Of a stretch of 64,000 nucleotides of DNA, positions 10,561 through 58,394 are shown piece by piece. Position 1 is the stretch's first letter. The number at the start of each line of letters is the position of its first letter. Both the position numbers and the translations under genes were made by a program. Source of the stretch: Escherichia coli (GTDB taxonomy: Bacteria > Pseudomonadota > Gammaproteobacteria > Enterobacterales > Enterobacteriaceae); NCBI RefSeq assembly GCF_024223415.1, contig NZ_CP100500.1; one strand, written 5' to 3'. The notes beneath the pieces were generated by a model, which was given only the letters and a program-made list of their open reading frames with translations, ran no database searches and was not told the origin of the DNA.

Positions 10561-11808
10561 ATGGATGTCATGAGAAGTGTTCTGGGAATGGTGGTATTGC
10601 TGACGATTGCGTTTTTACTGTCAGTAAACAAGAAGAAGATCAGCCTGCGTACCGTTGGCGCGGCGTTAGTGTTACAGGTCGTGATCGGCGGGATTATGCT
10701 TTGGTTACCGCCAGGGCGTTGGGTCGCTGAAAAAGTCGCTTTTGGCGTGCATAAAGTGATGGCGTACAGCGATGCAGGTAGCGCATTTATCTTCGGTTCG
10801 CTGGTCGGGCCGAAAATGGACACGCTGTTTGATGGCGCAGGATTTATCTTTGGTTTCAGGGTGTTACCGGCAATTATCTTCGTCACCGCGCTGGTGAGTA
10901 TTCTCTACTACATCGGTGTGATGGGGATCTTAATTCGCATTCTCGGCGGTATCTTCCAGAAAGCGTTAAATATCAGCAAGATCGAGTCATTCGTCGCGGT
11001 CACTACCATTTTCCTCGGGCAAAACGAAATTCCGGCAATCGTCAAACCCTTTATCGATCGGCTGAATCGCAATGAGTTATTTACAGCGATTTGTAGTGGC
11101 ATGGCCTCAATTGCCGGTTCGACAATGATTGGTTACGCCGCGCTGGGCGTGCCTGTGGAATATCTGCTGGCGGCATCATTAATGGCGATCCCCGGCGGGA
11201 TCTTGTTTGCCCGCCTGTTAAGCCCGGCTACGGAATCTTCGCAGGTTTCCTTTAATAACCTCTCTTTCACCGAAACACCGCCAAAAAGCATTATTGAAGC
11301 GGCAGCGACAGGGGCGATGACCGGGCTGAAAATCGCTGCGGGTGTGGCAACAGTGGTGATGGCATTTGTTGCCATCATTGCGTTAATTAACGGTATTATC
11401 GGCGGCGTTGGCGGCTGGTTTGGTTTTGAACATGCCTCGCTGGAGTCCATTTTAGGTTATCTGCTGGCCCCACTGGCGTGGGTAATGGGTGTTGACTGGA
11501 CTGATGCGAATCTTGCCGGGAGTTTGATTGGACAGAAACTGGCAATAAATGAATTTGTCGCTTATCTCAATTTCTCACCCTATCTGCAAACGGCTGGCAC
11601 TCTGGATGCTAAAACCGTGGCGATTATTTCCTTCGCGTTGTGCGGTTTCGCTAACTTTGGTTCTATCGGGGTGGTGGGGGCGTTTTCTGCGGTTGCGCCA
11701 CACCGTGCGCCGGAAATCGCCCAACTTGGTTTACGCGCGCTGGCGGCGGCGACACTTTCTAATCTGATGAGTGCCACCATTGCCGGGTTCTTTATTGGTT
11801 TAGCGTAG
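10561..11808 (+). CDS. nupX: NupC-family nucleoside permease
   Basis: 415-aa ORF, MDVMRSVLGMVVLLTIAFLLSVNKKK...; close paralogue of psuT. Confidence 0.9.
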   Translation: MDVMRSVLGMVVLLTIAFLLSVNKKKISLRTVGAALVLQVVIGGIMLWLPPGRWVAEKVAFGVHKVMAYSDAGSAFIFGSLVGPKMDTLFDGAGFIFGFRVLPAIIFVTALVSILYYIGVMGILIRILGGIFQKALNISKIESFVAVTTIFLGQNEIPAIVKPFIDRLNRNELFTAICSGMASIAGSTMIGYAALGVPVEYLLAASLMAIPGGILFARLLSPATESSQVSFNNLSFTETPPKSIIEAAATGAMTGLKIAAGVATVVMAFVAIIALINGIIGGVGGWFGFEHASLESILGYLLAPLAWVMGVDWTDANLAGSLIGQKLAINEFVAYLNFSPYLQTAGTLDAKTVAIISFALCGFANFGSIGVVGAFSAVAPHRAPEIAQLGLRALAAATLSNLMSATIAGFFIGLA

Positions 11809-17880: not shown

Positions 17881-19860
17881 ATGTTTAGGTTGAACCCTTT
17901 CGTACGGGTCGGGCTGTGTTTGTCCGCTATTTCTTGTGCATGGCCTGTGTTAGCGGTCGATGATGATGGCGAAACGATGGTTGTCACTGCATCTTCCGTT
18001 GAACAAAACCTTAAAGATGCACCCGCCAGTATCAGCGTCATTACCCAGGAAGACCTGCAGCGAAAACCGGTACAGAATCTGAAGGATGTCCTCAAAGAAG
18101 TGCCTGGCGTACAACTGACGAACGAAGGGGATAACCGTAAGGGCGTTAGTATTCGTGGTCTGGACAGCAGCTACACCCTGATTCTTGTCGACGGTAAACG
18201 CGTTAACTCCCGCAATGCCGTCTTCCGCCACAATGATTTCGATCTGAACTGGATCCCGGTCGATTCCATCGAACGTATTGAAGTGGTCCGTGGCCCGATG
18301 TCGTCGCTGTACGGTTCCGATGCGCTCGGCGGTGTAGTGAATATCATCACCAAAAAAATCGGTCAGAAATGGTCGGGTACCGTTACCGTCGATACCACCA
18401 TTCAGGAACATCGCGATCGCGGTGATACCTATAACGGTCAGTTCTTTACCAGTGGACCATTAATTGATGGTGTGCTGGGAATGAAAGCTTACGGCAGCCT
18501 GGCAAAACGTGAAAAGGATGACCCGCAAAACTCAACGACCACCGATACCGGAGAAACGCCGCGTATTGAAGGATTCTCCAGCCGCGACGGCAATGTCGAA
18601 TTTGCCTGGACACCGAATCAAAATCACGATTTTACTGCCGGATATGGTTTCGACCGTCAGGATCGTGATTCCGACTCGCTGGACAAAAACCGCCTGGAAC
18701 GCCAGAACTACTCCGTCAGCCATAATGGGCGTTGGGATTACGGCACCAGCGAACTGAAATACTACGGTGAGAAAGTCGAGAACAAAAACCCTGGCAACAG
18801 CAGCCCGATAACTTCCGAAAGCAATACGGTCGACGGCAAATACACGTTGCCGCTGACGGCGATTAATCAGTTTCTCACGGTTGGCGGTGAATGGCGTCAC
18901 GACAAACTTAGCGATGCGGTGAACCTGACCGGGGGAACCAGCTCCAAAACGTCTGCCAGCCAGTACGCGCTGTTTGTGGAAGATGAATAGCGAATCTTCG
19001 AGCCGCTGGCGCTGACGACCGGCGTACGTATGGACGATCATGAAACCTACGGTGAACACTGGAGTCCGCGTGCCTACCTGGTTTATAACGCCACCGACAC
19101 CGTAACGGTGAAAGGGGGCTGGGCGACGGCATTTAAAGCGCCTTCTCTGTTGCAACTTAGCCCTGACTGGACGAGCAATTCCTGCCGTGGCGCATGTAAG
19201 ATTGTGGGTAGCCCGGATCTGAAACCAGAAACCAGCGAAAGTTGGGAGCTGGGGCTTTACTACATGGGTGAAGAAGGCTGGCTGGAAGGGGTTGAATCCA
19301 GCGTTACCGTTTTCCGTAACGATGTGAAAGATCGTATCAGCATCAGCCGTACGTCTGACGTCAATGCTGCACCGGGCTACCAAAACTTTGTTGGTTTTAC
19401 AGCGAACGGTGTGCCGGTATTTAGCTACTACAACGTTAACAAAGCACGTATTCAGGGCGTGGAAACCGAACTGAAAATTCCGTTCAACGATGAATGGAAA
19501 CTGTCACTCAACTACACCTACAACGATGGTCGTGATGTCAGCAACGGCGAAAACAAACCGCTATCCGATCTGCCGTTCCATACCGCTAACGGTACGCTGG
19601 ACTGGAAACCGCTGGCACTGGAAGACTGGTCATTCTATGTTTCTGGTCACTATACCGGGCAGAAACGAGCCGACAGCGCGACGGCTAAAACACCGGGCGG
19701 TTATACCATCTGGAATACCGGCGCGGCCTGGCAGGTGACTAAAGACGTCAAACTGCGCGCAGGCGTGCTGAACCTTGGCGACAAGGATCTCAGTCGTGAC
19801 GACTACAGCTATAACGAAGACGGACGTCGTTACTTTATGGCAGTGGATTATCGCTTCTGA
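17881..19860 (+). pseudogene. cirA: Catecholate siderophore / colicin Ia-Ib receptor CirA, interrupted by an in-frame amber codon
   Basis: Track ORFs 17881..18990 and 19030..19860 share a reading frame and are separated only by TAG at 18988-18990 (...[26 protein letters not shown]...); wild-type CirA has Trp here (EDEWRIFEP) by recollection. Confidence 0.85.
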
Positions 19861-19891
19861 TAAGAAGATGCCCGGCGAACCGGGCGGACTT

Positions 19892-21670: not shown

Positions 21671-22828
21671 ATGGAGCGCAACGTCACGCTCGATTTTGTT
21701 CGCGGCGTCGCCATTCTGGGGATCCTGCTATTAAACATCAGCGCCTTTGGGCTACCAAAGGCGGCTTATCTTAATCCCGCCTGGTACGGCGCTATTACGC
21801 CGCAGGATGCATGGACCTGGGCATTTCTCGATCTCATCGGCCAGGTGAAATTCCTCACGCTTTTTGCGCTGCTGTTTGGTGCTGGCCTGCAAATGTTGCT
21901 GCCCCGTGGCAGACGATGGATCCAGTCGCGGTTAACGCTGTTAGTCTTGTTGGGCTTTATTCACGGTTTATTGTTCTGGGACGGCGATATTCTGCTGGCT
22001 TACGGGCTGGTGGGCTTAATCTGCTGGCGGCTGGTGCGCGATGCGCCATCGGTAAAAAGCCTGTTTAATACAGGCGTCATGCTTTATCTGGTGGGGCTTG
22101 GCGTTTTGCTGTTATTGGGGTTGATTTCCGACAGCCAGACCAGCCGCGCTTGGACGCCGGATGCATCGGCTATTTTGTATGAAAAATACTGGAAGCTTCA
22201 CGGCGGCGTTGAAGCGATCAGTAATCGTGCCGATGGTGTTGGCAACAGTTTACTGGCACTGGGCGCACAGTATGGCTGGCAACTGGCAGGGATGATGCTC
22301 ATTGGTGCGGCGCTGATGCGCAGCGGCTGGCTGAAAGGGCAGTTCAGCTTACGTCACTATCGTCGTACTGGTTTTGTGCTGGTGGCGATTGGGGTGACCA
22401 TTAACCTTCCAGCCATCGCCCTGCAATGGCAGCTGGACTGGGCGTATCGCTGGTGTGCCTTCTTACTTCAAATGCCGCGGGAACTGAGTGCGCCGTTTCA
22501 GGCGATTGGCTATGCGTCGCTGTTTTATGGCTTCTGGCCGCAATTGAGCCGCTTTAAGCTGGTGCTTGCGATCGCCTGCGTCGGACGGATGGCGCTGACC
22601 AACTATCTATTGCAAACGCTGATTTGTACCACGCTTTTTTACCACCTCGGTTTGTTTATGCATTTTGACCGCCTGGAGCTGCTGGCGTTTGTTATTCCGG
22701 TATGGCTGGCGAATATCCTCTTCTCTGTTATCTGGCTGCGTTACTTCCGCCAGGGGCCGGTGGAATGGCTCTGGCGTCAGTTAACTTTGCGTGCTGCCGG
22801 ACCGGCAATATCTAAAACATCAAGATAA
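21671..22828 (+). CDS. yeiB: DUF418-family inner membrane protein
   Basis: 385-aa hydrophobic ORF immediately after folE. Confidence 0.85.
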   Translation: MERNVTLDFVRGVAILGILLLNISAFGLPKAAYLNPAWYGAITPQDAWTWAFLDLIGQVKFLTLFALLFGAGLQMLLPRGRRWIQSRLTLLVLLGFIHGLLFWDGDILLAYGLVGLICWRLVRDAPSVKSLFNTGVMLYLVGLGVLLLLGLISDSQTSRAWTPDASAILYEKYWKLHGGVEAISNRADGVGNSLLALGAQYGWQLAGMMLIGAALMRSGWLKGQFSLRHYRRTGFVLVAIGVTINLPAIALQWQLDWAYRWCAFLLQMPRELSAPFQAIGYASLFYGFWPQLSRFKLVLAIACVGRMALTNYLLQTLICTTLFYHLGLFMHFDRLELLAFVIPVWLANILFSVIWLRYFRQGPVEWLWRQLTLRAAGPAISKTSR

Positions 22829-22969
22829 CGATCTGGATCACATTCGTTAACAAAACGGCTGTAACCGTTTCCATTGCTGTGACTCGATTCACGAAGTCCT
22901 GTATTCAGTGCTGACAAAATAGCCGCCAGCAAGCAGTCATTTACTGCAATCTCATAACAGGTAGTGAAT

Positions 22970-24010
22970 ATGATCACCATTCGTGATGTAGCGCGTCAGG
23001 CTGGCGTCTCTGTGGCAACGGTTTCCCGGGTGCTCAATAACAGCACGCTGGTCAGTGCCGACACGCGTGAAGCAGTAATGAAAGCCGTGAGTGAGCTGGA
23101 TTATCGGCCAAACGCCAATGCCCAGGCGCTGGCAACTCAGGTTAGCGATACCATTGGCGTGGTGGTGATGGACGTTTCTGATGCTTTTTTCGGCGCGCTG
23201 GTAAAAGCGGTGGATCTGGTCGCCCAGCAGCATCAGAAATACGTGCTAATCGGCAATAGCTATCATGAAGCGGAAAAAGAGCGTCACGCCATTGAGGTGT
23301 TAATTCGCCAGCGTTGTAATGCGTTGATTGTTCACTCAAAAGCATTGAGTGACGATGAACTGGCGCAATTTATGGATAACATTCCCGGTATGGTGTTAAT
23401 CAACCGCGTTGTGCCGGGGTACGCCCATCGTTGCGTTTGCCTGGATAATCTCAGCGGTGCCCGAATGGCGACGCGCATGTTGCTGAATAACGGTCATCAA
23501 CGTATTGGTTATCTTTCTTCCAGCCACGGCATTGAAGATGACGCCATGCGTAAAGCAGGCTGGATGAGTGCGTTGAAAGAGCAGGATATTATTCCGCCAG
23601 AAAGCTGGATTGGCACTGGTACGCCGGACATGCCGGGCGGTGAGGCGGCGATGGTTGAACTGCTGGGGCGCAATCTACAACTTACCGCTGTATTTGCTTA
23701 TAACGACAATATGGCCGCTGGCGCACTGACAGCATTAAAAGATAATGGCATTGCGATTCCGTTACATCTCTCAATCATCGGTTTCGATGATATTCCCATC
23801 GCCCGTTACACCGACCCGCAATTAACGACCGTGCGTTATCCCATTGCTTCAATGGCTAAATTAGCCACCGAACTGGCCTTGCAGGGGGCAGCAGGCAATA
23901 TTGATCCTCGTGCCAGCCACTGTTTTATGCCGACGTTAGTGCGTCGCCATTCTGTCGCAACGCGCCAGAATGCGGCGGCGATCACTAACTCAACAAATCA
24001 GGCGATGTAA
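22970..24010 (+). CDS. galS: LacI/GalR-family repressor GalS (mgl repressor / galactose isorepressor)
   Basis: Track ORF starts 6 nt upstream; start placed at [25 protein letters not shown] (HTH). Confidence 0.92.
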
Positions 24011-27953: not shown

Positions 27954-28130
27954 TGTAGGCCGGATAAGGCGTTCACGCCGCATCCGGCAACAGGAGCCAA
28001 ATGCCGGATGCAACGCTGGCGCGTTTTATCCGGCCTACAATAAGCTCAACATACTGATTTGTATGGTTTTGTAGGCCGGATAAGGCGTTCAAGCCGCATC
28101 CGGCGACAGGAACCAAATGCCGGATGCGTC
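27954..28130. repeat. REP/BIME cluster (two tandem units of paired REP sequences)
   Basis: Repeated TGTAGGCCGGATAAGGCGTTCACGCCGCATCCGGCA and inverted GCCGGATGC...TATCCGGCCTACA units in the mglC-preA intergenic region. Confidence 0.9.
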
Positions 28131-35200: not shown

Positions 35201-35572
35201 AAAACCATAGTGATGTTTTTTGACAATGTGTTAGCTCTTTATCAATAGGCCGCACGGTTGTTTGGTGGCGTCAAAATTGCCGAGGCGTTCCCTGAAGGCC
35301 GGGGCAGCCCACATGGATGTGGGCTGAGGGCGCGTTTTACAGGGATGTTACCTCGCGCCCGACCCGGTAGCCGTAAGGGATAAGCCGAGGGCACCGCGCA
35401 GCGGCGATTTTGTTCGCCAGAGCCCGGGGGTGCAGGGGGCGGCGGCGATTGGCCGCCCCCTGCGCGCTCCTTGCGCCAGTGATTATATGAAGCAATGCAC
35501 ATGACAGGAGCGCAACAGGATGAGAGACTGAAATATTCTCGTTATTTTCGGACCTGATGACATTAATTAATT

Positions 35573-39595: not shown

Positions 39596-39768
39596 AAAGT
39601 TCTTTGACGTTGCATTGCTGGCGTAAATGTCAGCAATGCAGCATTTCCTCACGATTCTCCTTTGACGATCGCACTTTTTGCTCGTTATGATGGCGTCGCT
39701 AGCCTCAGTAAATCCTTACTCCGGCGGTGCGCAACCCGTGCGCGTGAACCACTATCTGAATGCTCATC

Positions 39769-49082: not shown

Positions 49083-49767
49083 TTAAATGCCGAGTGGGAA
49101 AATATCATGGCCTTGTTCTTGCCAACTGGTGAGTTGCTGCTGTTGGGCGGAGGTTCGATTTTCACCGCACCACACCAGCAATGTACGGCCTTCGAATAGT
49201 TCAGGGCGTAGTTGATTGAGCGAGTGGGCGAGGACATCAATGCGCCATCCTTGTTGACTGGCAATCCAGCCCTCCAGCCACAGACGGGTGGTATCCTGAA
49301 TATTCCAGCCAACCACCAGCGCATCTTTACCCTGTTTTTTACGTGCCGAAGCCAGACAAATGGCGATGTAGTTGATCAGTACGCCGTCGAGGATCGCCAG
49401 CAGCGCCTGGAGAGTCGGTTGTTGGCACTGAAGCCGTCGGCGCAGAGGAATAAACAGATGTGTGGTGAGTGTCTGGGCGGGGTAATCCTGACCGCGCTCT
49501 TTGATCCACGTTCGCAGGCTATGTAGATTGCCGCTTTGCAGGTAAGTCAGTAATGTTTCTTGCTGATCGCGCCAGCCGTTCTGCACATCAACATTTTCAT
49601 TACTGAGCAGCATTTTAACTTTGCTGACCTGCACGCCGTTGTCGATCCAGCGTTTGATCTCGCGGATCCGGTCAATATCGGCATCGTTGAACAGCCGATG
49701 ACCGCCGTCTGTCCGTTGCGGTTTCAGCAATCCGTAACGCCTCTGCCACGCGCGTAACGTGACAGGG
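49083..49767 (-). pseudogene. mlrA: MerR-family curli regulator MlrA (YehV), 5'-truncated by prophage insertion
   Basis: Minus-strand translation matches MlrA from ...PVTLRAWQRRYGLLKPQRTDGGHRLFNDADIDRIREIKRW... to the native C-terminus; the first ~16 codons (MALYTIGEVALLCDIN, part of the HTH) are replaced by phage DNA. Confidence 0.85.
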
Positions 49768-49804
49768 ATTAAGGGTAAACTAACTGATTTTACAAGTTTT
49801 TATT

Positions 49805-51091
49805 TTACCCCACTTTCTTATGGGGCATACATGGGACACTTTCAGATAGTCTTTTGTTAAGGAGTTCTATCTGTTCGTGATTGTTGTCTTTCATCCATGC
49901 TCCGTAAACATTGAATACCATTTGTGCGTTTGTGTGGCCCATCTGGCTTGCGATAAAACTAGGATTAGCTCCAGCGGCAAGTGACCAGCATGCATAAGTA
50001 TGCCTGGATTGGTACGATTTTCTGTGTCTCAGACCTGCGCGTTTTAAGATACTTGTCCATGACTCCCTGATGGAGTCAACCTTATAGTGCGGTCCGGAAA
50101 ACTGCCGCTGTTTTATTACCTGAGGACTAAAAACAAAAGTGCATTTATGCACAGTACTTCTCCCATATTCCCTCTGCTTTACCTCTACAGAATGTTGCTT
50201 TCCAAGCATGGTCATTTCCGCCTGACTTTTAAGAGCATCAATAGCTGGTTGAACCAGATGAATTGTCCTTCCGGTGCCAGCATCGGTTTTTGGTGGAGTG
50301 AATTCGCCAAGTTTTGTATAATTCCTACGGATGGTTATAGTCCTTGCTTTAAGGTCTATATCTTCCCATGCCAGCGATACCAACTCCCCGTGACGAATAC
50401 CCGTGTATACAGCGAGAATCCACAGGTTTTTTGTTTGTTGATGACGGCAAGCCTCAATAAAACGAATAAATTCGTCACGGGTGAGAGGATCTGGTTTTAC
50501 CTTGGACTTTTTTAAGGGAGCCAGACCGTTAAATGGGTTTCCTGAGGTATAACCATTATCTGTTGCAAATTGAAACATTCCAGCTATGGTTGTCATATAG
50601 TAGTTTACCGTGACCACTGAGCGCCCTTTTATGGAAGAAGTCTTTCCATTAGAAAGCTTTTGGTAACCGGTCAACAAATCTCTCCTTACGAAAAGTAAAT
50701 CCTCTTTTGTTATGGATGAAACCAGTTTTTTTTCACCTAACATTGGTAACATGTTTTTAATTACTGACTGGTAACGGTTAAGTGCATTCGCACAAATCTC
50801 AATTTTCTTAAGGTCCAACCATTTTTCCGAAAGTGCCTTAACGGTTATCTCTCTTTTTCCCAGACCAAAGTGTTTCAGGTTAGGGGAATTAGGGAACTGC
50901 GCGGCGTAGTCGAAACTCCCCATTCTGATTGCAAAACAAACGGAAGTGCGAAGTTCACCTGCGATCTTCCGGTTTTTGGCGGTGTCAGGAACACCGAGGT
51001 TTTCTCTGACACGTTTGCCATTATAGTGAAACCATATACGGAGTGATCCTCCATGGTTTTCAACGCCTGTCGGGTATGATACGTTACTCAT
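49805..51091 (-). CDS. int: Phage tyrosine integrase
   Basis: 428-aa ORF; C-terminal catalytic-domain residues (RHTYACW, GHTNAQMVFNVY); transcribed toward the att junction. Confidence 0.9.
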   Translation of the reverse strand: MSNVSYPTGVENHGGSLRIWFHYNGKRVRENLGVPDTAKNRKIAGELRTSVCFAIRMGSFDYAAQFPNSPNLKHFGLGKREITVKALSEKWLDLKKIEICANALNRYQSVIKNMLPMLGEKKLVSSITKEDLLFVRRDLLTGYQKLSNGKTSSIKGRSVVTVNYYMTTIAGMFQFATDNGYTSGNPFNGLAPLKKSKVKPDPLTRDEFIRFIEACRHQQTKNLWILAVYTGIRHGELVSLAWEDIDLKARTITIRRNYTKLGEFTPPKTDAGTGRTIHLVQPAIDALKSQAEMTMLGKQHSVEVKQREYGRSTVHKCTFVFSPQVIKQRQFSGPHYKVDSIRESWTSILKRAGLRHRKSYQSRHTYACWSLAAGANPSFIASQMGHTNAQMVFNVYGAWMKDNNHEQIELLNKRLSESVPCMPHKKVG

Positions 51092-51124
51092 TAAACCTCC
51101 CAGACGTCCAGGAGCATTAACAGG

Positions 51125-51379
51125 TTAACCGGAACTTGCATTTTTGGCACCTGGTTGTTTCTGGTTTTCGATCCATCGCATAATTTCTTCGATGTTGTAC
51201 AGGCATTCACTGTAGTGCCCCGGATCACCTTCTACAGCGTAATGGCGGTATTCTTTTCCCTGCATCCATGACTTTCTTCTTGCCCGCTCAATGGTGCCAG
51301 GCTTTAGCCCTGTTGATGCAATGAGGACTCTCTCCGTACACCATTTGCTGGGGGTTATCTGATAGATGATTGTTTGCAT
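51125..51379 (-). CDS. Putative excisionase / small DNA-binding protein
   Basis: 84-aa ORF immediately upstream of int in the same orientation; assigned by position and size only. Confidence 0.5.
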   Translation of the reverse strand: MQTIIYQITPSKWCTERVLIASTGLKPGTIERARRKSWMQGKEYRHYAVEGDPGHYSECLYNIEEIMRWIENQKQPGAKNASSG

Positions 51380-51535
51380 GCCAACCTCATAAAATTTTCA
51401 TCCACGGCAGTGGCACCACACATCAAACATTCGCTTCACAACTTCACGACAGTAGAAGCCGTCAACATCTCGCGTCAGGTCATAGCGATTGCCATAACGC
51501 TGGCGCACCCATAGTTCAAATGCTTTATTCATTCT

Positions 51536-51778
51536 TTACTTCCTTTTCATGGCCCGTAATTTTTTCAGATGAGCTTCCTGCTCTGTTTCTGCCAGAATTT
51601 GTCGGTATTCCTGGTGATCGAGCCGTTCAAACAGTTCATTAAAATCGTTTATTTTTACCGACTGTGTTCTCCCATCCATTCTTCTGTACAACACAGTGTT
51701 GTTTATGCAGCGAATAATTTTTACCGGGTAGCCAGCACTATCGGTGTATATCTGACCACGTTGAATCAGAGCGAACAT
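51536..51778 (-). CDS. Hypothetical phage protein
   Basis: 80-aa ORF in the leftward early operon. Confidence 0.45.
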   Translation of the reverse strand: MFALIQRGQIYTDSAGYPVKIIRCINNTVLYRRMDGRTQSVKINDFNELFERLDHQEYRQILAETEQEAHLKKLRAMKRK

Positions 51779-51865
51779 TCCTTTATCCCCAGCGGAAAAG
51801 CGAATACAGAATAAATGCCACCGCTATTGCAACTCCTACTGCGGTGAATGCTTCAGGCCAATTCA

Positions 51866-52495
51866 TCATTTCACCTCCACGCCGATCCCGGCAATAACAC
51901 AATCCCGTTTGATAGCTTCTTTCACCCAGCGTTTATAGGTTTCCGGATGGAATTTTGCGTTTTTTCCGGTACCGCTCCAGAATGCCTTTGATGTGATATC
52001 GGGCAGGGTGATGGTCAGGCCTTTCTTCTTGCTGCCTTCAGAACTTTTGCAAAAAGTTAATGCGTCGCGTAGTTCTTTAACACACGCATAGTTTTCTGCT
52101 TTCTCTGGGTCGCCGGTACGGTGTTCAGCTTCTTGTCTGCACCATTTGATGACTTTCTCTGCGGCTGCGTGGAGACGCTGACGTTGCCAGTCGTATGTGT
52201 CGACCAGCCCATATGCGTGATTCTTTGCTTTGCTTAATTCAGCGACGAGGCATTCGGAATCAATCAAATTATTTTCCGCAGCGGACAGCGCTTGTTTAAG
52301 TCGCTCGATTTCTTGAGCCATGTAGTAGCCGGTTTTACTCCAGGTATCGACATCATCGTCACTCATATCCAGTTCCATCGACGCCATCAGAACGGCGTCG
52401 TGATAGTTCTGGCTACCGCAGGTGATTGCAACGACGTAGGAGTCACTATTTTCTCGTTTATGGATAAGTACAACTGGGTTTTTGATCTTGCTCAT
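51866..52495 (-). CDS. Hypothetical phage protein
   Basis: 209-aa ORF; no motif I can recognise. Confidence 0.55.
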   Translation of the reverse strand: MSKIKNPVVLIHKRENSDSYVVAITCGSQNYHDAVLMASMELDMSDDDVDTWSKTGYYMAQEIERLKQALSAAENNLIDSECLVAELSKAKNHAYGLVDTYDWQRQRLHAAAEKVIKWCRQEAEHRTGDPEKAENYACVKELRDALTFCKSSEGSKKKGLTITLPDITSKAFWSGTGKNAKFHPETYKRWVKEAIKRDCVIAGIGVEVK

Positions 52496-52595
52496 TCCGC
52501 ACCTCAGTAATTCATTAAAAATTTATATTCAATCAGCGCACCGAAAACGACGGACGCCAGCAGCAGACCAAACAGCATGGACAGGAGGAATGACT

Positions 52596-52820
52596 TCATC
52601 GCTTTGCCTCCCGCTGTACGATTTTGTAGGCGCGCAGGATGTCGCGTGTTTTTCCTGACAACGATGACTTAACCCAGAAAAAGCCGCTGCGGTTTTCATA
52701 GATCCCCTGTACATTAAACAGCACCGCATCAACAACGCGGTTATGCTTTTGCAATGTCAGGCAGGAACTGGTGATCACGATGTTCGCTACGGCGCCATAG
52801 TCCTGGTATTGGATTTTCAT
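52596..52820 (-). CDS. Hypothetical phage protein
   Basis: 74-aa ORF abutting the next ORF; a 31-aa hydrophobic peptide ORF (MKSFLLSMLFGLLLASVVFGALIEYKFLMNY, ~52504-52599) overlaps its stop by ATGA. Confidence 0.45.
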   Translation of the reverse strand: MKIQYQDYGAVANIVITSSCLTLQKHNRVVDAVLFNVQGIYENRSGFFWVKSSLSGKTRDILRAYKIVQREAKR

Positions 52821-53159
52821 TTACATGTTCCCCATAACGGTATCGCTCATGTCGTTAACCATGCTCTGCCAGATTTCTTTGCCGCTTTGCGTCAGCTCGT
52901 TTCCACGAACGCATTTGCTTAACAGCTGAATACCAACGGCTTCCCATTGGGGGTAATTTTCTTTGATAGCCTTCAGAGCATAACCATCGATTAAATCCCT
53001 GATACCTTTAACCCCACCGATGATGTTTACTCGTATGGATTGCCCATTGACATTAATCATGAAATGATCTCCGTTGGTGGCGGATATGTGGTTGTGCAGT
53101 GCAGCCGCATACTGATTTGCCAGCGCATTGAGGCGGAAATTTTGTGTAATGAGTGGCAT
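52821..53159 (-). CDS. Hypothetical phage protein
   Basis: 112-aa ORF, stop/start abutting neighbours. Confidence 0.5.
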   Translation of the reverse strand: MPLITQNFRLNALANQYAAALHNHISATNGDHFMINVNGQSIRVNIIGGVKGIRDLIDGYALKAIKENYPQWEAVGIQLLSKCVRGNELTQSGKEIWQSMVNDMSDTVMGNM

Positions 53160-53905
53160 TATTTACCCTCCCAACCAATCACCTGAAACAGCCCCATTTT
53201 CGGGTGATACCAGCGGGTACCGCGTGGCTCTGCCTCTGACATCATCTGATGAAATGCTTTCATGAACGGCTCAAGCTCCACGATAGCCCGGCGAGAAAGA
53301 AGACCATCTGGCGTCATAAATTCGTGCGTATCGGTTGGGATGCTGTAGGCATTGACCAGATTGCGGCACTTGGCATCAGTCATTCCGCTTTTGGCGACCA
53401 CCTGGCGATAACCGACATATCCGGCGCGCATATTTCCGCGTTTGATGTTCTCCACAGCTTTGGTGACCGTTTCGATCTTCTCTTCAACATGACTCAGGCG
53501 CTTCTGCTGGCGAACGGCATCGGCGGCCATTGCAGCGATCATCTCCATTTCCGTCAGCGGCGCGTGAGTTCGGAAATAGCTGTTAACCAGTTCGCGCTGA
53601 ACCTGCCATGCAAGAGTATCGTTAAAAGGCTTCGTCAACATCAGGTAACCAGACTCGAAAAGAATGATCCCTTTGGCAGTTCGCGCGGCAAAGGCATCAG
53701 AAAGTGACTCCGTACGTATTACGTCCGCAGTCATTTCAAGAAAATCCACCCCTTCGATAAAGTGAGAACGGTTGCGGTTAAACGCAGCACGGGCGGTACC
53801 TTCCGGGCGCTGGTGGACGTCATCAATCATTGCAAATGTCACAACACGCTGACCGCGATATTCGATTACCGGAAACTGTTTGTTGTTGATGGTTACAGTA
53901 TTCAT
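53159..53905 (-). CDS. Hypothetical phage protein, possibly antirepressor/regulatory-like
   Basis: Start placed at MNTVTINNKQFPVIEYRGQRVVTF (RBS GGAGAT upstream); domain assignment is from memory and uncertain. Confidence 0.5.
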   Translation of the reverse strand: MNTVTINNKQFPVIEYRGQRVVTFAMIDDVHQRPEGTARAAFNRNRSHFIEGVDFLEMTADVIRTESLSDAFAARTAKGIILFESGYLMLTKPFNDTLAWQVQRELVNSYFRTHAPLTEMEMIAAMAADAVRQQKRLSHVEEKIETVTKAVENIKRGNMRAGYVGYRQVVAKSGMTDAKCRNLVNAYSIPTDTHEFMTPDGLLSRRAIVELEPFMKAFHQMMSEAEPRGTRWYHPKMGLFQVIGWEGK

Positions 53906-53948
53906 TTTTATCTCCAGACAGCCCGGCGTGTAATACCGGGCATATGTA

Positions 53949-54776
53949 TTACTTAACCTGAATAAATGGTGTGTTGGCACCGCTGGTCATGTATTGCGGC
54001 AGTGTACCGTTCCACTTGTTGATGGCTTCCAGCTCCATAACGTTTGGGTTCTGGCGCAGAGCTTCACCGCGTAAACGAATAGCATCGGCTTCGGCCTGGG
54101 CTTTTGTGCGAATCGCATCTGCCTGTCCGGCAGCTTCCGCGCGCAACATGTTGGCTTCCGCTTCGCGCTGTTTTACTTCCTGCTCGCGTTGCAGGGTTTT
54201 CTGGTTGGCCGTGACTTTGGCATTAATGCTGTCGATAACGGTTGGCGGGTACTCCGGCTTACCCACATATGAGAGGCTCATTACCTGAATACCGATAGGT
54301 GTCATCTCTGCCTGAATGTCTTTAAGAGCTTCATCCAGCAGCTCAGACTTGCCGCCGTCGATAAATTTGTCAGTGGTCATTTTGCTGGCCAGTCGGTTGA
54401 GTGCGTCGGCGATCTTCTGGCGCAGGTCAGTGTCGGTAATGTCATCCACGCCTTTGCGGTAGGTCTGAAACACCGTGGTAACTTTGGATGGATCAACTTT
54501 GTAGGCCACGCCAATGTGATAGCCGATGGTTGTACCGTCACTCATCTGGAAACTGAACGGTTCATCGTAGGTCTTCATTTGTTTGAAGGTGGGGAAGATA
54601 TAAACTTCAGTATTCCAGCCAGTCCAGTAGCGACCAACACCGACCACCTCACCGACGCCTTTGTCGTCGCCCAGTTTATTTACCTTGATGCCAACATTAC
54701 CTGGTTCAACGCGATCGCAACCGACAAGGCCAATAGTCGGCAGAACAATGGCTAAAGCAAAAATAATTTTTTTCAT
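53949..54776 (-). CDS. SPFH/band-7 (prohibitin/flotillin-like) domain lipoprotein
   Basis: 275-aa ORF; lipoprotein signal MKKIIFALAIVLPTIGLVGC; SPFH-like core followed by an Ala/Glu/Arg/Gln-rich coiled-coil tail (EQEVKQREAEANMLRAEAAGQADAIRTKAQAEADAIRLRGEALRQ). Confidence 0.7.
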   Translation of the reverse strand: MKKIIFALAIVLPTIGLVGCDRVEPGNVGIKVNKLGDDKGVGEVVGVGRYWTGWNTEVYIFPTFKQMKTYDEPFSFQMSDGTTIGYHIGVAYKVDPSKVTTVFQTYRKGVDDITDTDLRQKIADALNRLASKMTTDKFIDGGKSELLDEALKDIQAEMTPIGIQVMSLSYVGKPEYPPTVIDSINAKVTANQKTLQREQEVKQREAEANMLRAEAAGQADAIRTKAQAEADAIRLRGEALRQNPNVMELEAINKWNGTLPQYMTSGANTPFIQVK

Positions 54777-54961
54777 CTTTTATCCTTAGTGAAAGAAAGA
54801 CCCTTGTAAATGGCATAAATGCAGGGCGGGGTCAGAAACGCCAGTGCAAAGCCAGAAATAACTGCTATCGTATCCTTCATGGATATAAGGAACGGAACGA
54901 TTAATCCGTAAATACATGTGATAATTGCCAGTGATATAACTATTCTGAAATAAATGTTCAT
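54773..54961 (-). CDS. Small membrane protein, translationally coupled to the SPFH lipoprotein
   Basis: 62-aa ORF with two hydrophobic helices; stop overlaps the SPFH start by 4 nt. Confidence 0.55.
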   Translation of the reverse strand: MNIYFRIVISLAIITCIYGLIVPFLISMKDTIAVISGFALAFLTPPCIYAIYKGLSFTKDKR

Positions 54962-55021
54962 GGTCCTCCTGATGTATTCGGCTTGCCTTATTTAATTGCG
55001 TCATAGTTAATTTCGTTTACG

Positions 55022-55412
55022 TCAGAATGGTTTTGTTGCCATCAGTTCGTAATATCCGGCGCTCCATGTGTCATATTTTCTGAACCATTTTTCTGTATAC
55101 TGTTTCCTGGCGATGAGTCTGCGCAGTCGTCTGATTGTTCGCTGGTGTGCGCGGGTATACTCTGTGGTTGATTCTCCACGTTTCCATATCTCATTCCTGT
55201 TGAAGATAAAACGCTTGTCAGGATAGCGTTGTCGGAATCCTGAACGTTCAAAAGCGCGGGTGGTCATAAAGAATGCCAGGTAACGAATTGCCGTTTTTCG
55301 AGTGAGGCATTTTTTTTGTTCTTCCGTGGCGTGTTACAAAAAATAACGGGCCGACGGGTGTATCATGTTTCTGTAATGCCTGGTCAATGGCGCTGGCGGT
55401 GCGGTTGTCGAT
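55022..55412 (-). pseudogene. Hypothetical phage gene split by a frameshift at a T8/A8 homopolymer
   Basis: A 57-aa ORF (MIDNRTASAIDQALQKHDTPVGPLFFVTRHGRTKK...) and the 81-aa track ORF 55022..55267 become one ~130-aa ORF if the A8 run (plus-strand T8 at ~55309-55316) is shortened by 1 nt. Confidence 0.4.
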
Positions 55413-55601
55413 CATTTCTTTATTTCTCCCGAATAACGTTCATGACTCATTACTTCCCAGTTCCGGCCGTCGTCTTTCGATAACAGCCGCCAGCGACGGT
55501 TAACCTTCAGACTGAGATATCCGGTGCGCTGTATCCGATGCGGAAATATCCGTCGGCATCGGTACAACAACAGGACCTGCAATGCCTGCCGGTGGATCCG
55601 C

Positions 55602-55817
55602 TCAGGAATGCGTGTTGCTGTTAATGCCACCGGTTTCCTCCTGAGCAGGTGCTGTTATCTGATACCCCGCTCTTTCTGCCAGCCGTATGAATGTATCCAT
55701 GCTGGCAATCAGCTCGCCATCGCGGACTTTGCAGACACCTGTGACTTGGCCATTTTCAATTGTCATAACGATCTGCACTTTTTCGCGCACAACAGATACA
55801 GGGGATAAATTAGCCAT
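55602..55817 (-). CDS. Hypothetical phage protein
   Basis: 71-aa ORF, 1-nt overlap with the upstream ORF. Confidence 0.45.
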   Translation of the reverse strand: MANLSPVSVVREKVQIVMTIENGQVTGVCKVRDGELIASMDTFIRLAERAGYQITAPAQEETGGINSNTHS

Positions 55818-56176
55818 CAGTTAATTCCTCCACTGGTATATTTTTCTTTTTCGTAATCAACAACCTCTTTTAAAAGGTTGTCTACAATTAACTTCCCCGA
55901 TTCAGTTAGATACTCAGTGTGTTGATTAATATTGATGGCATTGCGGTATGCGGCAAGTATTGCGGTCTCGCCATCCGTCCGTCCAAATTCAACACGGGTA
56001 AGACCTTCAAATCGTAATAACAGTTGTGTCATGAAGTGTTCCGTAATTTCGATGGTAGTTAACCCTCCGTCAGGAAGATTTACGATGAGAAGATTTCCTC
56101 CTGTTTTACGTTGCATCCGCTGTAATGCTGTTGTGACTATGCGGTGACGATATTTACCAATGATTTCATATGCCAT
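55817..56176 (-). CDS. Hypothetical phage protein
   Basis: 119-aa ORF. Confidence 0.5.
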   Translation of the reverse strand: MAYEIIGKYRHRIVTTALQRMQRKTGGNLLIVNLPDGGLTTIEITEHFMTQLLLRFEGLTRVEFGRTDGETAILAAYRNAININQHTEYLTESGKLIVDNLLKEVVDYEKEKYTSGGIN

Positions 56177-56360
56177 TTGTTATTTCCCGTATGCTTTCCT
56201 AAGAAACAGTATTGCAACTGACCAGTATCCTGCATTAGCCATTAATAAGGCGGTTTTATAAGCGCTTCTATTTTTCATGTATCACCATTATTTTCTGGTT
56301 GTGAAAACTCCCGACCAGAGGCCGTCATGTTTTTATGTGTGATTTTTTATTGAGTATTCT

Positions 56361-56552
56361 TTATTCGTTACGTAGTGTTTCTATATACTCGTAAGCCATT
56401 TCACAGGTCTTATTCATGGACCTGATGAGACAACATAAATAATCGTCTAACTCTCCTGAGTCGGGCGAATTCTTAAATATAAATTCAAGCATTGATGTAT
56501 TCTCTTTTATTTGTGCCGCCACTTCCTCAAGAATATTTAATGGAGTTTTCAT
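56361..56552 (-). CDS. Hypothetical phage protein
   Basis: 63-aa ORF overlapping the upstream ORF by 4 nt. Confidence 0.4.
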   Translation of the reverse strand: MKTPLNILEEVAAQIKENTSMLEFIFKNSPDSGELDDYLCCLIRSMNKTCEMAYEYIETLRNE

Positions 56553-56773
56553 GTTCTTTGCTCCTTTAATGTGTCTCTGGCGCTTCTGGCGTATTGTTGT
56601 GCAAGTAAAAAGATGTCATCCGAAAGTTCATCACATTCTTCATCACCTGAAGCCGAAATGATTAACCCCGCTTCAAGCAGTACGGCAATGTGATGAAAAG
56701 CTGTTTCCGGTTCGTTGGTGAGGCCTTTGAACATTTTCATTTTATGCTTCCTCCTGATTTTGTTTATAAGCAC
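56549..56773 (-). CDS. Hypothetical phage protein with basic N-terminus
   Basis: 74-aa ORF, N-terminus KIRRKHKMKMFK. Confidence 0.4.
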   Translation of the reverse strand: MLINKIRRKHKMKMFKGLTNEPETAFHHIAVLLEAGLIISASGDEECDELSDDIFLLAQQYARSARDTLKEQRT

Positions 56774-57161
56774 CAGTCAGTAACCACATCGGATCACAGC
56801 CAAGAACATTAGCCAGAGGAATAATCTGGCTTGCCAGAGGCTCCCTCTTGCCACTTTCCCACTGGATGATAATTTCTTCATCGAGATTGAGCAGCCTGGC
56901 GAGTTCGGCGGTTGTTAAGCCGCAGTCTTCGCGTTGGGTGCGAATCCGATTCTGGGAATTAATAGCTAAATTTTGTTTGCATAAACGTGACGCGGTGAGG
57001 CTATATTTTTGAGTTACAGCCAGGATGGAGCTGGCAAGTTCAATTAACTCAGGGTTATTGCTGCTATACAGTAGTGCACCAGCCCCTACTAAGAGCTGAA
57101 TATTCTCAAGAGCATCGTGCTGATTTGTTGGTAACCCCATATACGATGACATTTTTCTCAT
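56742..57161 (-). CDS. HTH (XRE-like) domain protein, first gene of the leftward early operon
   Basis: 139-aa ORF with a C-terminal helix-turn-helix (GLTTAELARLLNLDEEIIIQWESGKREP). Confidence 0.55.
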   Translation of the reverse strand: MRKMSSYMGLPTNQHDALENIQLLVGAGALLYSSNNPELIELASSILAVTQKYSLTASRLCKQNLAINSQNRIRTQREDCGLTTAELARLLNLDEEIIIQWESGKREPLASQIIPLANVLGCDPMWLLTGAYKQNQEEA

Positions 57162-57212
57162 CCTCTATAATTGCTTTGGTGAGTTCGATACCTATGTCAA
57201 GATAATAGGTTT

Positions 57213-57244
57213 ACCGATTTCACCTGTCAATCGGTTTATCGATT
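57213..57244. promoter_or_regulatory. Putative OL operator palindromes
   Basis: ACCGATT-N9-AATCGGT and AATCG-N6-CGATT inverted repeats, sharing half-sites with the cI-cro palindrome. Confidence 0.5.
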
Positions 57245-57250
57245 TTTTCC

Positions 57251-57276
57251 AAAAAAAAGCCCACTTAAGAGTGGGC
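57251..57276 (-). terminator. Intrinsic terminator downstream of cI
   Basis: On the minus strand, GCCCACT-cttaa-GTGGGC followed by T8. Confidence 0.75.
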
Positions 57277-57294
57277 GGGTTAAATGATTTTTGC

Positions 57295-57987
57295 TTATGC
57301 AAAACGGTGTAGTGTCATAGGCCAACTGACAATTACTTTTCCGTCAATGTGAAGTTGTTCGAAGTCTTCCGGTTCGATAGCCCAATCCTTGTAAGCTGGG
57401 TTGTCAGATATCACCGTTAGAGTATCTTTGATTTTTTGAAGTCTTTTGATGTGCGATGTTCCAGAGTATGTAAAGGCGTATATACCATCACCATTAAATG
57501 TGCGAACTGATACATCTACAAATACCAAGTCTTCAGGGTCTATTGTGCCTTTCATACTGTCGCCGTGGGCGTTTATTGCTTTGATTGCTGATGCTGGTCT
57601 GCCGCCAAAAACTCTTGATGCGTATCCTGGCTCTATCGCTATAGATCTGACAATGTCAGGAAAATCAGAGTTATAACTACCAGGTCCGCAACTATATCTG
57701 ATGTCTAAAACATCCACGACATACGAATCAGTAACCCAATCTTCAGAAATGTTACGTATTTGGTGTGAGTCTGCAGAGGTCACGATTTCCATTGGGCCAA
57801 CACCCGATGCGAGCCATTCCGGGTTAACGCCCAAAACTTTTGCTATTTCGACTGTTTTTCTGGAACCGTTGGCTTTGTTAAGTAGTTGGTTAACACTGGA
57901 CTGAGCCATACCCACTTCTTTGGCCAGCCTACCTTGCGTAAATTTTGCGTTGCGCATAGCTAAATCAAGTCGTTCTGAAAATGTCAT
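57295..57987 (-). CDS. cI: Phage CI-type repressor (N-terminal HTH, C-terminal S24 LexA-like peptidase)
   Basis: 230-aa ORF; HTH (FTQGRLAKEVGMAQSSVNQL) and C-terminal autocleavage-domain motifs (GDSM...K); divergent from cro. Confidence 0.85.
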   Translation of the reverse strand: MTFSERLDLAMRNAKFTQGRLAKEVGMAQSSVNQLLNKANGSRKTVEIAKVLGVNPEWLASGVGPMEIVTSADSHQIRNISEDWVTDSYVVDVLDIRYSCGPGSYNSDFPDIVRSIAIEPGYASRVFGGRPASAIKAINAHGDSMKGTIDPEDLVFVDVSVRTFNGDGIYAFTYSGTSHIKRLQKIKDTLTVISDNPAYKDWAIEPEDFEQLHIDGKVIVSWPMTLHRFA

Positions 57988-58020
57988 TGCGATTTTCCTC
58001 CCCTCTCTATCTTGGCTAGT

Positions 58021-58038
58021 TTATCGGCTTTCCGATAA
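58021..58038. promoter_or_regulatory. Putative OR operator
   Basis: TTATCGG-cttt-CCGATAA perfect palindrome between cI and cro. Confidence 0.6.
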
Positions 58039-58106
58039 ATATTCTAGGTTTAACGTTGAATATCGCTTTTCCTGTTGTTATTATGCGTTCAATAGGAGAT
58101 GCGATT

Positions 58107-58394
58107 ATGAAACATAAAGCCATAGAGAAAGCTATTGAGATTCTTGGAAGTCAGCAAGCCTTAGCCAAGCGATGCGGAAAGGCCCAGTCAACAGTCTGCG
58201 ATTGGTTGAACTGCAAGAACAAGATTTCACCAGAATTTGTGCCGTTATTGGTTGCAGCTGTCGACGGAAAGATCCAAGCGTATGAATTTCGTCCAGACCT
58301 ACCAGAGCTTTTTCCACATCCAAGCTTAGCGCGCACGGGGGAGGTGAAGGGCTTGTATGTCCCAGAATTACGTTCAGACAGAGATGCCATCTAG
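58107..58394 (+). CDS. cro: Cro-like HTH regulator
   Basis: ATG at 58107 with RBS AGGAGA; MKHKAIEKAIEILGSQQALAKRCGKAQSTVCDWLN (HTH); track ORF begins at an upstream TTG. Confidence 0.7.
   Translation: MKHKAIEKAIEILGSQQALAKRCGKAQSTVCDWLNCKNKISPEFVPLLVAAVDGKIQAYEFRPDLPELFPHPSLARTGEVKGLYVPELRSDRDAI

What the first reader, a model, noticed from the sequence alone, without database searches (positions are those of the whole stretch)
18988..18990. In-frame amber codon interrupts cirA
The cirA reading frame is continuous across 17881..19860 except for a single TAG at 18988-18990, where a Trp codon (TGG, EDEWRIFEP) is expected. CirA is the receptor for colicins Ia/Ib and microcins, takes up catecholate siderophores and siderophore-conjugated antibiotics, and is used by some phages, so loss would confer resistance at an iron-uptake cost. 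The alternative is that the strain carries an amber suppressor.
Basis: partly seen in the sequence, partly recalled or inferred. Interest (0 to 1): 0.6.

Follow-up and report, generated by a model that had tools for sequence, protein, structure and literature searches.

The report
Nonsense-inactivated cirA receptor gene
A single G-to-A change turns tryptophan 370 of the E. coli outer-membrane receptor CirA into a stop codon; this is a real but ordinary knock-out of a gene that is broken repeatedly in nature because it is the entry door for colicins, microcin V and the antibiotic cefiderocol.

Summary
Window 18988-18990 is TAG, codon 370 of an otherwise intact cirA frame (17881-19860). The closest intact allele has TGG, and the only other difference in the gene is synonymous. 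The TAG is a real mutation, not an assembly error: two independent assemblies (GCA_900482235.1 and run SRR19977217) carry the identical haplotype. The product ends after the plug and about 36% of the barrel domain, upstream of the loop 7/8 residues that bind colicin Ia and microcin V, so it is almost certainly a null allele. It is not unusual. The same W370* occurs on at least 7 different cirA haplotypes, in 8 of 5,426 complete genomes, and its 369-aa product is on 633 public contigs. Products of nine other nonsense sites tested all exist too. Among the 40 complete genomes with the most similar cirA, at least 28 are disrupted, through seven further independent lesions, against 4 of 60 in a species-wide sample. 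Published work shows that cirA truncation gives colicin Ib resistance and reduced cefiderocol susceptibility. The amber-suppressor alternative cannot be tested in this window, which has no tRNA genes, and is unlikely. Verdict: known kind of loss-of-function allele, low interest.

The parts
17881..19860 (+). cirA pseudogene: full reading frame including the natural TGA stop at 19858-19860, interrupted once
   Evidence: NCBIfam NF007478 CirA equivalog, 1,445 bits for the repaired protein. PDB 2HDF/2HDI/9NN6. Synteny lysP-cirA-yeiG.
18988..18990 (+). Premature amber codon TAG (W370*), caused by G-to-A at 18989; the next base is C (TAG-C)
   Evidence: The same haplotype is present in L011 and L012.
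17881..18987 (+). Translated N-terminal product, 369 aa: signal peptide (residues 1-25), TonB box ETMVVTA (residues 31-37), Pfam Plug (residues 44-152, nt 18010-18336) and the first 149 residues of the Pfam barrel match (221-369)
   Evidence: Pfam coordinates. The signal-peptide boundary is taken from the start of the solved chain at V26. The TonB box is read from the sequence and named from established knowledge. The exact product is on 633 public contigs.
18991..19860 (+). Untranslated 3' remnant of cirA: barrel residues 371-659, including R436 and R490 of loops 7 and 8. An ORF from ATG 19030 (276 aa) has no signal peptide and no obvious Shine-Dalgarno sequence.
   Evidence: profile positions 384-663. 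Residue positions from the alignment. Ligand contacts from PMC12511343.
17673..17713 (+). Promoter-like hexamers overlapping an AT-rich Fur-box-like sequence (GATAATTGTTATCGTTTGCATTATC). Unchanged relative to most relatives, so the gene is probably still transcribed.
   Evidence: Promoter scan. Identical in L001-L008, with KV7 the outlier at 17709. The Fur-box assignment is from established knowledge and was not tested.
19221..19234 (+). Tandem heptamer GAAACCA x2 inside cirA, intact in the window. Loss of one copy (-7, frameshift) is the commonest cirA lesion in related genomes.
   Evidence: The exact deletion junction is in 28 complete genomes.

Best explanation
This is a genuine, recent loss-of-function allele of cirA. 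A G-to-A transition at 18989 changed TGG (Trp370) to TAG. The promoter region is unchanged, so the gene is probably still transcribed under iron limitation (inferred). Translation stops after 369 residues. The product keeps the signal peptide, TonB box, plug and roughly the first 10 of 22 barrel strands. The strand count is interpolated from published loop positions, not measured. The product lacks the rest of the barrel, including loops 7 and 8, whose residues R436 and R490 form the pocket for colicin Ia and microcin V. Such a fragment cannot close a barrel or be inserted into the outer membrane, so the cell has no Cir receptor (inferred). Predicted phenotype: resistance to colicins Ia/Ib and microcin V, loss of uptake of linear catecholates (dihydroxybenzoylserine), and reduced cefiderocol uptake. 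Enterobactin uptake through FepA and Fiu is retained. The allele most likely rose under killing pressure from Cir-targeting bacteriocins. That is inferred from repeated parallel inactivation of the gene in the same lineage and across E. coli. It was not shown for this strain.
For: Shown here:
- The stop codon and single-base cause.
- The same haplotype in independent assemblies.
- A clean surrounding assembly.
- An unchanged upstream region.
- The stop falls inside the Pfam barrel match 221-632, after Plug 44-152. The N-terminal fragment covers profile positions 1-369 of 663 in the CirA equivalog.
- R436 and R490 lie downstream of the stop (alignment; roles from PMC12511343).

Parallel evolution:
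- W370* sits on at least 7 cirA haplotypes that differ at 10-56 sites.
- It is in 8 of 5,426 complete genomes, and RefSeq annotates it as 'internal stop' in the four of these genomes whose annotation I read.
- The products of nine other single-step nonsense sites are all present in public assemblies, on 44 to over 1,000 contigs.
- The window's own allele family carries eight independent lesions: W370* plus Q56*, W243*, R371*, -1 at codon 181, -1 at codon 293, -7 at the heptamer, and a +8 duplication.
- At least 28 of the 40 closest complete genomes are disrupted, against 4 of 60 in an evenly spread species sample.

Literature:
- Truncated CirA in Salmonella Reading abolished the colicin Ib zone and cut the cefiderocol zone from about 27 to about 18 mm (PMC10830755).
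- Colicin Ib co-culture selected a cirA frameshift in E. coli within 24 h (PMC11896792).
- cirA premature stops plus NDM-5 and PBP3 insertions give high cefiderocol MICs, reversed 8-16-fold by wild-type cirA (PMC9241927).
Against: - There is no phenotype for this strain.
- The rest of the genome is not available, so a suppressor tRNA cannot be excluded.
- The window clade is tiny: five contigs, nearly identical, at least one from a culture-collection assembly. The mutation could therefore have arisen during laboratory storage rather than in nature.
- The enrichment among the 40 nearest genomes is dominated by one clone (19 genomes with the -7 lesion). The count of independent events, eight lesions against at least five intact lineages, is the fairer measure, and it does not by itself separate positive selection from relaxed constraint.
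- A K. pneumoniae cirA-null mutant was outcompeted by its parent in vitro (abstract of PMC8579844). The authors of PMC11896792 expected such mutants not to persist.
Confidence: 0.9

Rival explanations
1. The strain carries an amber suppressor tRNA (supE- or supF-type), or reads through UAG, so that full-length, functional CirA is still made.
For: UAG is the stop codon most often suppressed in E. coli laboratory genetics (established knowledge). The frame downstream of the TAG is still perfectly intact, with no amino-acid difference from the intact allele. That is what suppression would predict, but it is equally what a recent mutation predicts.
Against: There is no tRNA gene in the 64-kb window. 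The nearest relatives have TGG, so the TAG is new and not a conserved recoding site. Relatives inactivate the same gene by frameshifts that no suppressor could rescue. From established knowledge, a C following UAG is a poor context for suppression, and suppressors are rare in natural isolates. supE would insert Gln in place of a buried barrel Trp, at partial efficiency.
Confidence: 0.03
2. The TAG is a sequencing or assembly error and the strain really has TGG.
For: None of the 5,426 complete RefSeq genomes has the window's exact 63-mer.
Against: The identical TAG-CGA haplotype, including the private synonymous T at 18645, is present in an NCBI assembly and in an independent sequencing run. 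The surrounding 22 kb shows no error signature. The same substitution is annotated as an internal stop in other genomes.
Confidence: 0.02
3. The allele is a true null but was not selected. cirA is dispensable because FepA, Fiu and, in many such strains, IroN cover catecholate uptake. It decays by drift, or the mutation arose during long-term culture-collection storage.
For: CirA transports breakdown products rather than the primary siderophore, and cirA mutants still use enterobactin and salmochelin (PMC10830755). The window clade is very small and nearly identical, and one member is a culture-collection-style assembly. About 7% of a species-wide sample shows out-of-frame or split cirA, which fits weak constraint.
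Against: Eight independent lesions in one allele family that otherwise differs at only a few sites, with no accompanying missense decay, point to recent, repeated hits rather than slow drift. Colicin Ib selects such mutants within 24 h in experiments. Convergent cirA loss accompanied clonal expansion in turkey-associated Salmonella. Many carriers come from poultry, where the cited authors describe IncI1 plasmids, which commonly carry colicin Ib, as ubiquitous among commercial-turkey Enterobacteriaceae.
Confidence: 0.25
4. The null allele was selected by cefiderocol or another catechol-conjugated antibiotic, or by a Cir-dependent phage, rather than by bacteriocins.
For: cirA premature stops are the main chromosomal contributor to high cefiderocol MICs in NDM-5 E. 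coli (PMC9241927).
Against: In ATCC 25922, cirA deletion alone left the listed MICs unchanged (PMC9241927 table fragment), so the benefit needs a carbapenemase and PBP3 background that cannot be seen in this window. Many carriers of cirA lesions are poultry, pig and wastewater isolates with no plausible cefiderocol exposure. No evidence for a Cir-dependent phage was retrieved.
Confidence: 0.07

Closest known systems
cirA premature-stop and frameshift alleles in carbapenem-resistant E. coli (ST167, ST405, ST617) associated with cefiderocol resistance (PMC9241927)
   Same: Same gene and species, and the same class of lesion: truncations at 109, 389 and 621 aa there, 369 aa here. The predicted loss of the catecholate and cefiderocol entry route is also the same.
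   Different: A different codon and lineage. The window shows no NDM-5 or PBP3 context, and by that paper a cirA deletion alone left the listed MICs unchanged in a susceptible background.
Convergent cirA truncations in turkey-associated Salmonella enterica serovar Reading (PMC7160679, PMC10830755)
   Same: Independent disruptions of cirA within one lineage, including slippage at a tandem heptamer near codon 447. Phenotype was shown there: no colicin Ib zone and a smaller cefiderocol zone. There is a poultry association, as for many E. coli carriers seen here.
   Different: A different species, and those lesions were frameshifts or deletions rather than a nonsense substitution. No phenotype or host data exist for the window strain.
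Colicin Ib-selected cirA(tr) mutant of E. coli in co-culture with S. Typhimurium SL1344 (PMC11896792)
   Same: Truncation of CirA (to 269 aa there) as the route to colicin resistance, selected within 24 h.
   Different: That was a laboratory-selected frameshift, and its authors predicted such alleles would not persist in nature. The W370* product is on 633 public contigs, and a -7 allele is fixed in 28 complete genomes.
Colicin I receptor Cir, structures 2HDF/2HDI and Cir-MccV complex 9NN6 (PMC12511343)
   Same: The repaired window protein aligns over its whole mature length. It has the plug, the 22-strand barrel, and R116/R436/R490 at the same positions.
   Different: The window allele has a shorter surface loop (FTANGVPVF in place of FETGANGRRIPVF), a common natural variant. 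It also stops at residue 370, so the solved architecture is not made.
Amber suppression by supE/supF tRNA alleles in E. coli K-12 laboratory strains
   Same: The interrupting codon is UAG.
   Different: No suppressor gene is visible. The strain is not K-12-like: its cirA is 98.2% identical to MG1655 but 99.9% identical to SCU-316, KV7 and the O78 strains. The TAG is not conserved in relatives.

Membership tests
CirA / colicin I receptor (TonB-dependent catecholate siderophore receptor) | Sequence match to the curated CirA equivalog model above its cut-off | tested here: met
   The repaired protein scores 1,445.3 bits on NF007478.2 (cut-off 745) over profile positions 1-663. It also aligns end to end with PDB 2HDF/2HDI/9NN6, 'Colicin I receptor'.
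CirA / colicin I receptor (TonB-dependent catecholate siderophore receptor) | Conserved chromosomal position between lysP and yeiG | tested here: met
   The same order yeiE-lysP-cirA-yeiG-folE is annotated in SCU-316 and KV7, and the regions are collinear with the window.
CirA / colicin I receptor (TonB-dependent catecholate siderophore receptor) | Complete plug plus 22-strand barrel encoded as one translatable product | tested here: not met
   TAG at codon 370 lies inside the Pfam barrel match 221-632. The product covers only profile positions 1-369 of 663. The locus is a cirA pseudogene, not a functional member.
CirA / colicin I receptor (TonB-dependent catecholate siderophore receptor) | Ligand pocket residues R116, R436 and R490 for colicin Ia and microcin V | tested here: not met
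   R116 is in the product. R436 and R490 are encoded downstream of the stop (alignment; roles from PMC12511343).
CirA / colicin I receptor (TonB-dependent catecholate siderophore receptor) | Iron- and Fur-regulated expression | not testable with these tools
   The upstream sequence is identical to that of most relatives and contains promoter-like hexamers over an AT-rich Fur-box-like stretch. Regulation itself was not measured.
Pseudogene by recent nonsense mutation | In-frame stop where orthologues have a sense codon, with the rest of the frame intact | tested here: met
   TGG in SCU-316, KV7 and nearly all complete genomes. There are no other stops or frameshifts, and no amino-acid difference from the intact allele.
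Pseudogene by recent nonsense mutation | Reproducible in independent sequence data | tested here: met
   L011 (GCA_900482235.1) and L012 (SRR19977217) carry the identical cirA sequence.
Programmed recoding or suppressed amber codon | A suppressor tRNA (CUA anticodon) in the same genome | not testable with these tools
   There are no tRNA genes in the window, and the rest of the genome is not available.
Programmed recoding or suppressed amber codon | Conservation of the in-frame stop among close relatives | tested here: not met
   The closest relatives have TGG. TAG appears sporadically on unrelated haplotypes.

The most novel reading that the evidence does not exclude
cirA behaves as a recurrently sacrificed gene in natural E. 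coli, with strong lineage-specific enrichment. In the window's allele family there are eight independent lesions, and at least 28 of the 40 closest complete genomes are disrupted, against about 7% in a species-wide sample. One lesion is slippage at a heptamer repeat that acts as a ready-made off switch. If this reflects sustained selection by Cir-targeting bacteriocins (colicin Ia/Ib, microcin V) in animal-gut and especially poultry niches, then cirA-null clones persist and spread in nature, contrary to a published expectation. They would form a standing reservoir of reduced cefiderocol susceptibility unrelated to drug exposure.
Probability: 0.45. Interest if true: 0.45.

Novelty: already known. 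Interest (0 to 1): 0.2.

Why it matters
For this strain, the allele predicts resistance to colicins Ia/Ib and microcin V and a reduced entry route for catechol-conjugated antibiotics such as cefiderocol. The cost is one of several catecholate uptake routes. For annotation, the locus should be called a cirA pseudogene (internal stop), not two genes. More broadly, the survey done here suggests that cirA inactivation is common, recurrent and clonally successful in some E. coli lineages. That is relevant to genomic prediction of cefiderocol susceptibility and to bacteriocin-based interventions. The single allele in this window adds nothing new to that picture.

Tried and rejected
1. Suppressor tRNA in the window: ARAGORN found no tRNA genes at all, so the question cannot be settled here.
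2. W370 as a special mutational hotspot: rejected as unsupported. Products of all nine other single-step nonsense sites tested are also in public assemblies, on 44 to over 1,000 contigs. The site is not in a Dcm (CCWGG) context (read from the sequence). 160 codons of cirA are one step from a stop, 38 of them by transition.
3. One clone explaining all W370* records: rejected, since there are at least 7 haplotypes. One poultry clone probably does dominate the 633 contigs (20 of the 24 longest contigs resemble L005).
4. Sequencing error: rejected.
5. A second lesion in the promoter or Fur box at 17709: rejected. The window has the majority base and KV7 is the outlier.
6. Re-initiation at ATG 19030 giving a functional C-terminal piece: rejected. 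There is no signal peptide and no Shine-Dalgarno-like sequence upstream (read).
7. Literature search for 'W370' with cirA found only irrelevant papers. The Cir crystal-structure paper PMC1868905 is not held. No paper on a Cir-dependent phage was retrieved.
8. The first 63-mer count misleadingly suggested the TAG was unique, because neighbouring polymorphisms hid the other TAG haplotypes. This was corrected with haplotype-specific queries.
9. The source strain's name could not be established.

Full report
**Observation.** The window reads GTG GAA GAT GAA TAG CGA ATC TTC GAG at 18976-19002. Translation of 17881-19863 gives a 659-residue frame with a single internal stop at codon 370, followed by the natural TGA and TAA. 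ORF listing splits the gene into 17881..18990 (369 aa) and 19030..19860 (276 aa).

**What the gene is.**
- With TGG restored, the protein scores 1,445 bits on the NCBIfam CirA equivalog NF007478 (cut-off 745), across the whole profile.
- It aligns over the full mature length with the solved colicin I receptor, 2HDF/2HDI, and with the Cir-microcin V complex 9NN6.
- Pfam places the Plug domain at residues 44-152 and the TonB-dependent barrel at 221-632.
- The gene lies between lysP and yeiG, as in annotated E. coli chromosomes.

**What changed.**
- Against the closest intact allele (strain SCU-316), the gene differs at two positions. One is a synonymous T/C at 18645. The other is G-to-A at 18989, turning TGG into TAG.
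- Over window 1-21,900 there are only seven differences from strain KV7: five other substitutions, one in-frame 3-bp indel in nupX, and the TAG. None is a homopolymer indel. The assembly is therefore clean and the lesion is young.
- The upstream region, with promoter-like hexamers over an AT-rich Fur-box-like stretch, matches the majority of relatives. The one difference from KV7 there is private to KV7.

**Is it real?**
- None of 5,426 complete RefSeq E. coli genomes has the window's exact 63-mer.
- I used the window-specific 415-residue NupX variant as a handle. It retrieved five contigs, from at least an NCBI assembly (GCA_900482235.1), an independent run (SRR19977217) and a contig over 1 Mb.
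- The two loci returned have a cirA identical to the window's, including TAG-CGA and the private T at 18645. They differ from the window by one substitution in 21 kb and one indel in 15 kb.
- The mutation is therefore heritable and reproducible, in a very small clade.

**Consequence.**
- The product ends inside the barrel domain. It retains the signal peptide, the TonB box, the plug and 149 of the 412 residues of the barrel match.
- The Cir-MccV paper states that loop 2 is residues 210-231, that R436 and R490 sit at the base of loops 7 and 8, and that these two residues with R116 form the pocket used by both microcin V and colicin Ia (PMC12511343). The alignment shows that this numbering is the precursor numbering used here.
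- Interpolating between those loops puts residue 370 at about the end of strand 10 of 22. This is an inference.
- Everything from loop 6 onward is missing.
- The downstream ORF from ATG 19030 has no signal peptide and no Shine-Dalgarno-like sequence, so it cannot supply the missing half.
- I conclude the cell makes no functional Cir. This is inferred, not measured.

**How ordinary is it?**
- The exact 369-residue product is on 633 public contigs.
- The same TGG-to-TAG change is present on at least seven cirA haplotypes that differ from each other at 10-56 sites. They also differ in the length of a surface loop and in the bases 12 nt before and 5 nt after the codon. Repeated mutation, not spread of one allele, is the economical reading.
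- Eight complete genomes carry it: WP7-S18-ESBL-09, CU37RT-2 and EA7, plus five poultry isolates of one haplotype. RefSeq flags it as an internal stop in the four of these whose annotation I read.
- As a control for a hotspot, I looked up the products expected from nine other one-step nonsense sites. All exist, on 44 to over 1,000 contigs. W370* is a common instance, not a special one.

**The window's own lineage.** Among the 40 complete genomes with the most similar cirA, I found seven further independent lesions.

| Lesion | Carriers |
|---|---|
| Q56* | EC1515 |
| -1 at codon 181 | CS18F, STE15, FY10, E06 |
| 8-bp duplication after nt 496 | MDR_56 |
| W243* | O78 strain 3 |
| -1 at codon 293 | GPEC1446 |
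| R371*, the adjacent codon | NCTC10444 |
| Loss of one copy of the tandem heptamer GAAACCA (window 19221-19234) | 19 of the 40; 28 complete genomes in all |

- At least 28 of the 40 are disrupted. Five are intact: SCU-316, KV7, EC416, Combat11I9 and FCI1, the last with an in-frame 3-bp deletion. Seven were not checked.
- In an evenly spread sample of 60 genomes across the species, four have an out-of-frame length or a split gene. That test cannot see nonsense mutations.
- The enrichment is real but is inflated by one successful clone. The count of independent events is the more robust figure.

**Why it happens.** Published experiments give the mechanism.
- Truncated CirA in Salmonella Reading abolished the colicin Ib inhibition zone and reduced the cefiderocol zone from about 27 to about 18 mm. 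Independent cirA lesions arose convergently in turkey-associated clones, one by slippage at the equivalent heptamer repeat (PMC7160679 and PMC10830755).
- In co-culture with a colicin Ib producer, over 90% of an E. coli population became resistant in 24 h, and a sequenced clone had a cirA frameshift (PMC11896792).
- In NDM-5 E. coli, cirA premature stops contribute to high cefiderocol MICs, and wild-type cirA lowers them 8-16-fold. In ATCC 25922, deletion alone left the listed MICs unchanged (PMC9241927).
- Many of the E. coli carriers found here are from poultry. The cited authors note that IncI1 plasmids, which commonly carry colicin Ib, are ubiquitous among Enterobacteriaceae in commercial turkeys.
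- I therefore favour bacteriocin pressure as the selective agent. For this strain that is an inference, and drift under weak constraint or a storage-acquired mutation remains possible.

**The amber-suppressor alternative.** The window holds no tRNA gene and the rest of the genome is unavailable, so this is formally untested. Several points count against it.
- The TAG is not conserved in relatives.
- Relatives break the same gene with frameshifts that cannot be suppressed.
- From established knowledge, a C after UAG is a poor suppression context, and suppressors are rare outside laboratory strains.

**Verdict.** This is a known kind of loss-of-function allele in a well-studied gene, and other carriers are already present, and annotated as a pseudogene, in public records. 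Interest is low. The only aspect worth a second thought is the population-level pattern of repeated, clonally persistent cirA loss. It runs against a published expectation that such mutants do not persist (PMC11896792), and it bears on cefiderocol surveillance.

Noticed in passing
window 49773-64000 (runs off the end of the window): A lambdoid prophage is integrated at the 5' end of mlrA (yehV). mlrA is on the minus strand, and its ORF is shortened to 49083..49730, since collinearity with KV7 ends at 49772. Genes seen: an intact integrase at 49805..51091(-), a CI-like repressor at 57295..57987(-), HNH endonuclease, helicase, primase, RusA, and antiterminator Q at 63457..63891. The window ends just after Q, so any cargo gene downstream is out of view. 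Only 12 of 5,426 complete genomes cover at least 80% of window 39001-64000.
   Followed up: partly
window 19221-19234 (inside cirA); L014 (strain 104): The tandem heptamer GAAACCA x2 is a slipped-strand site. Loss of one copy (-7, frameshift) is fixed in 28 complete genomes, mostly avian. Strain FCI1 has an in-frame -3 at the same spot. The equivalent repeat gained a copy in a Salmonella Reading isolate (PMC10830755). It could act as an off switch; reversibility is unknown.
   Followed up: partly
related loci L002, L004, L013, L014, L019, L020, L022: There are seven independent cirA lesions besides W370* among the 40 complete genomes whose cirA is most similar to the window's. At least 28 of the 40 are disrupted, against 4 of 60 in an evenly spread species sample. 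NCTC10444 carries R371* at the codon next to the window's stop.
   Followed up: yes
window about 21900-23000: There is a sharp change in divergence from strain KV7: 7 differences in the first 21.9 kb, then about 1.5-1.8% from about 23 kb to 49.7 kb. This suggests a recombination boundary near yeiB/galS.
   Followed up: no
window 11669-11670 (nupX, 10561..11808): An in-frame 3-bp deletion gives a 415-residue NupX instead of 416. This exact protein is on only five public contigs, and it served as a marker for the window's clade.
   Followed up: partly
window 27958-28035: An Rfam naRNA4 (REP-type nucleoid-associated RNA, 88 bits) lies in a roughly 170-bp segment between mglC and preA that is absent from KV7.
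   Followed up: no
window 39684-39764: An Rfam Peptidase-S11 RNA motif (72.8 bits) lies upstream of pbpG and overlaps the start of the ORF listed at 39760.
   Followed up: no
window 35262-35532: A roughly 270-bp segment between dusC and yohP aligns to KV7 only in inverted orientation (88% identity). It is a dispersed small repeat (median 3 places per genome), and the window's version is the common one at this locus (at least 99% identical in 2,691 genomes).
   Followed up: partly
L009 (KV7) position equivalent to window 17709: KV7 alone has G instead of A inside the Fur-box-like sequence upstream of its intact cirA. The effect on regulation is unknown.
   Followed up: no
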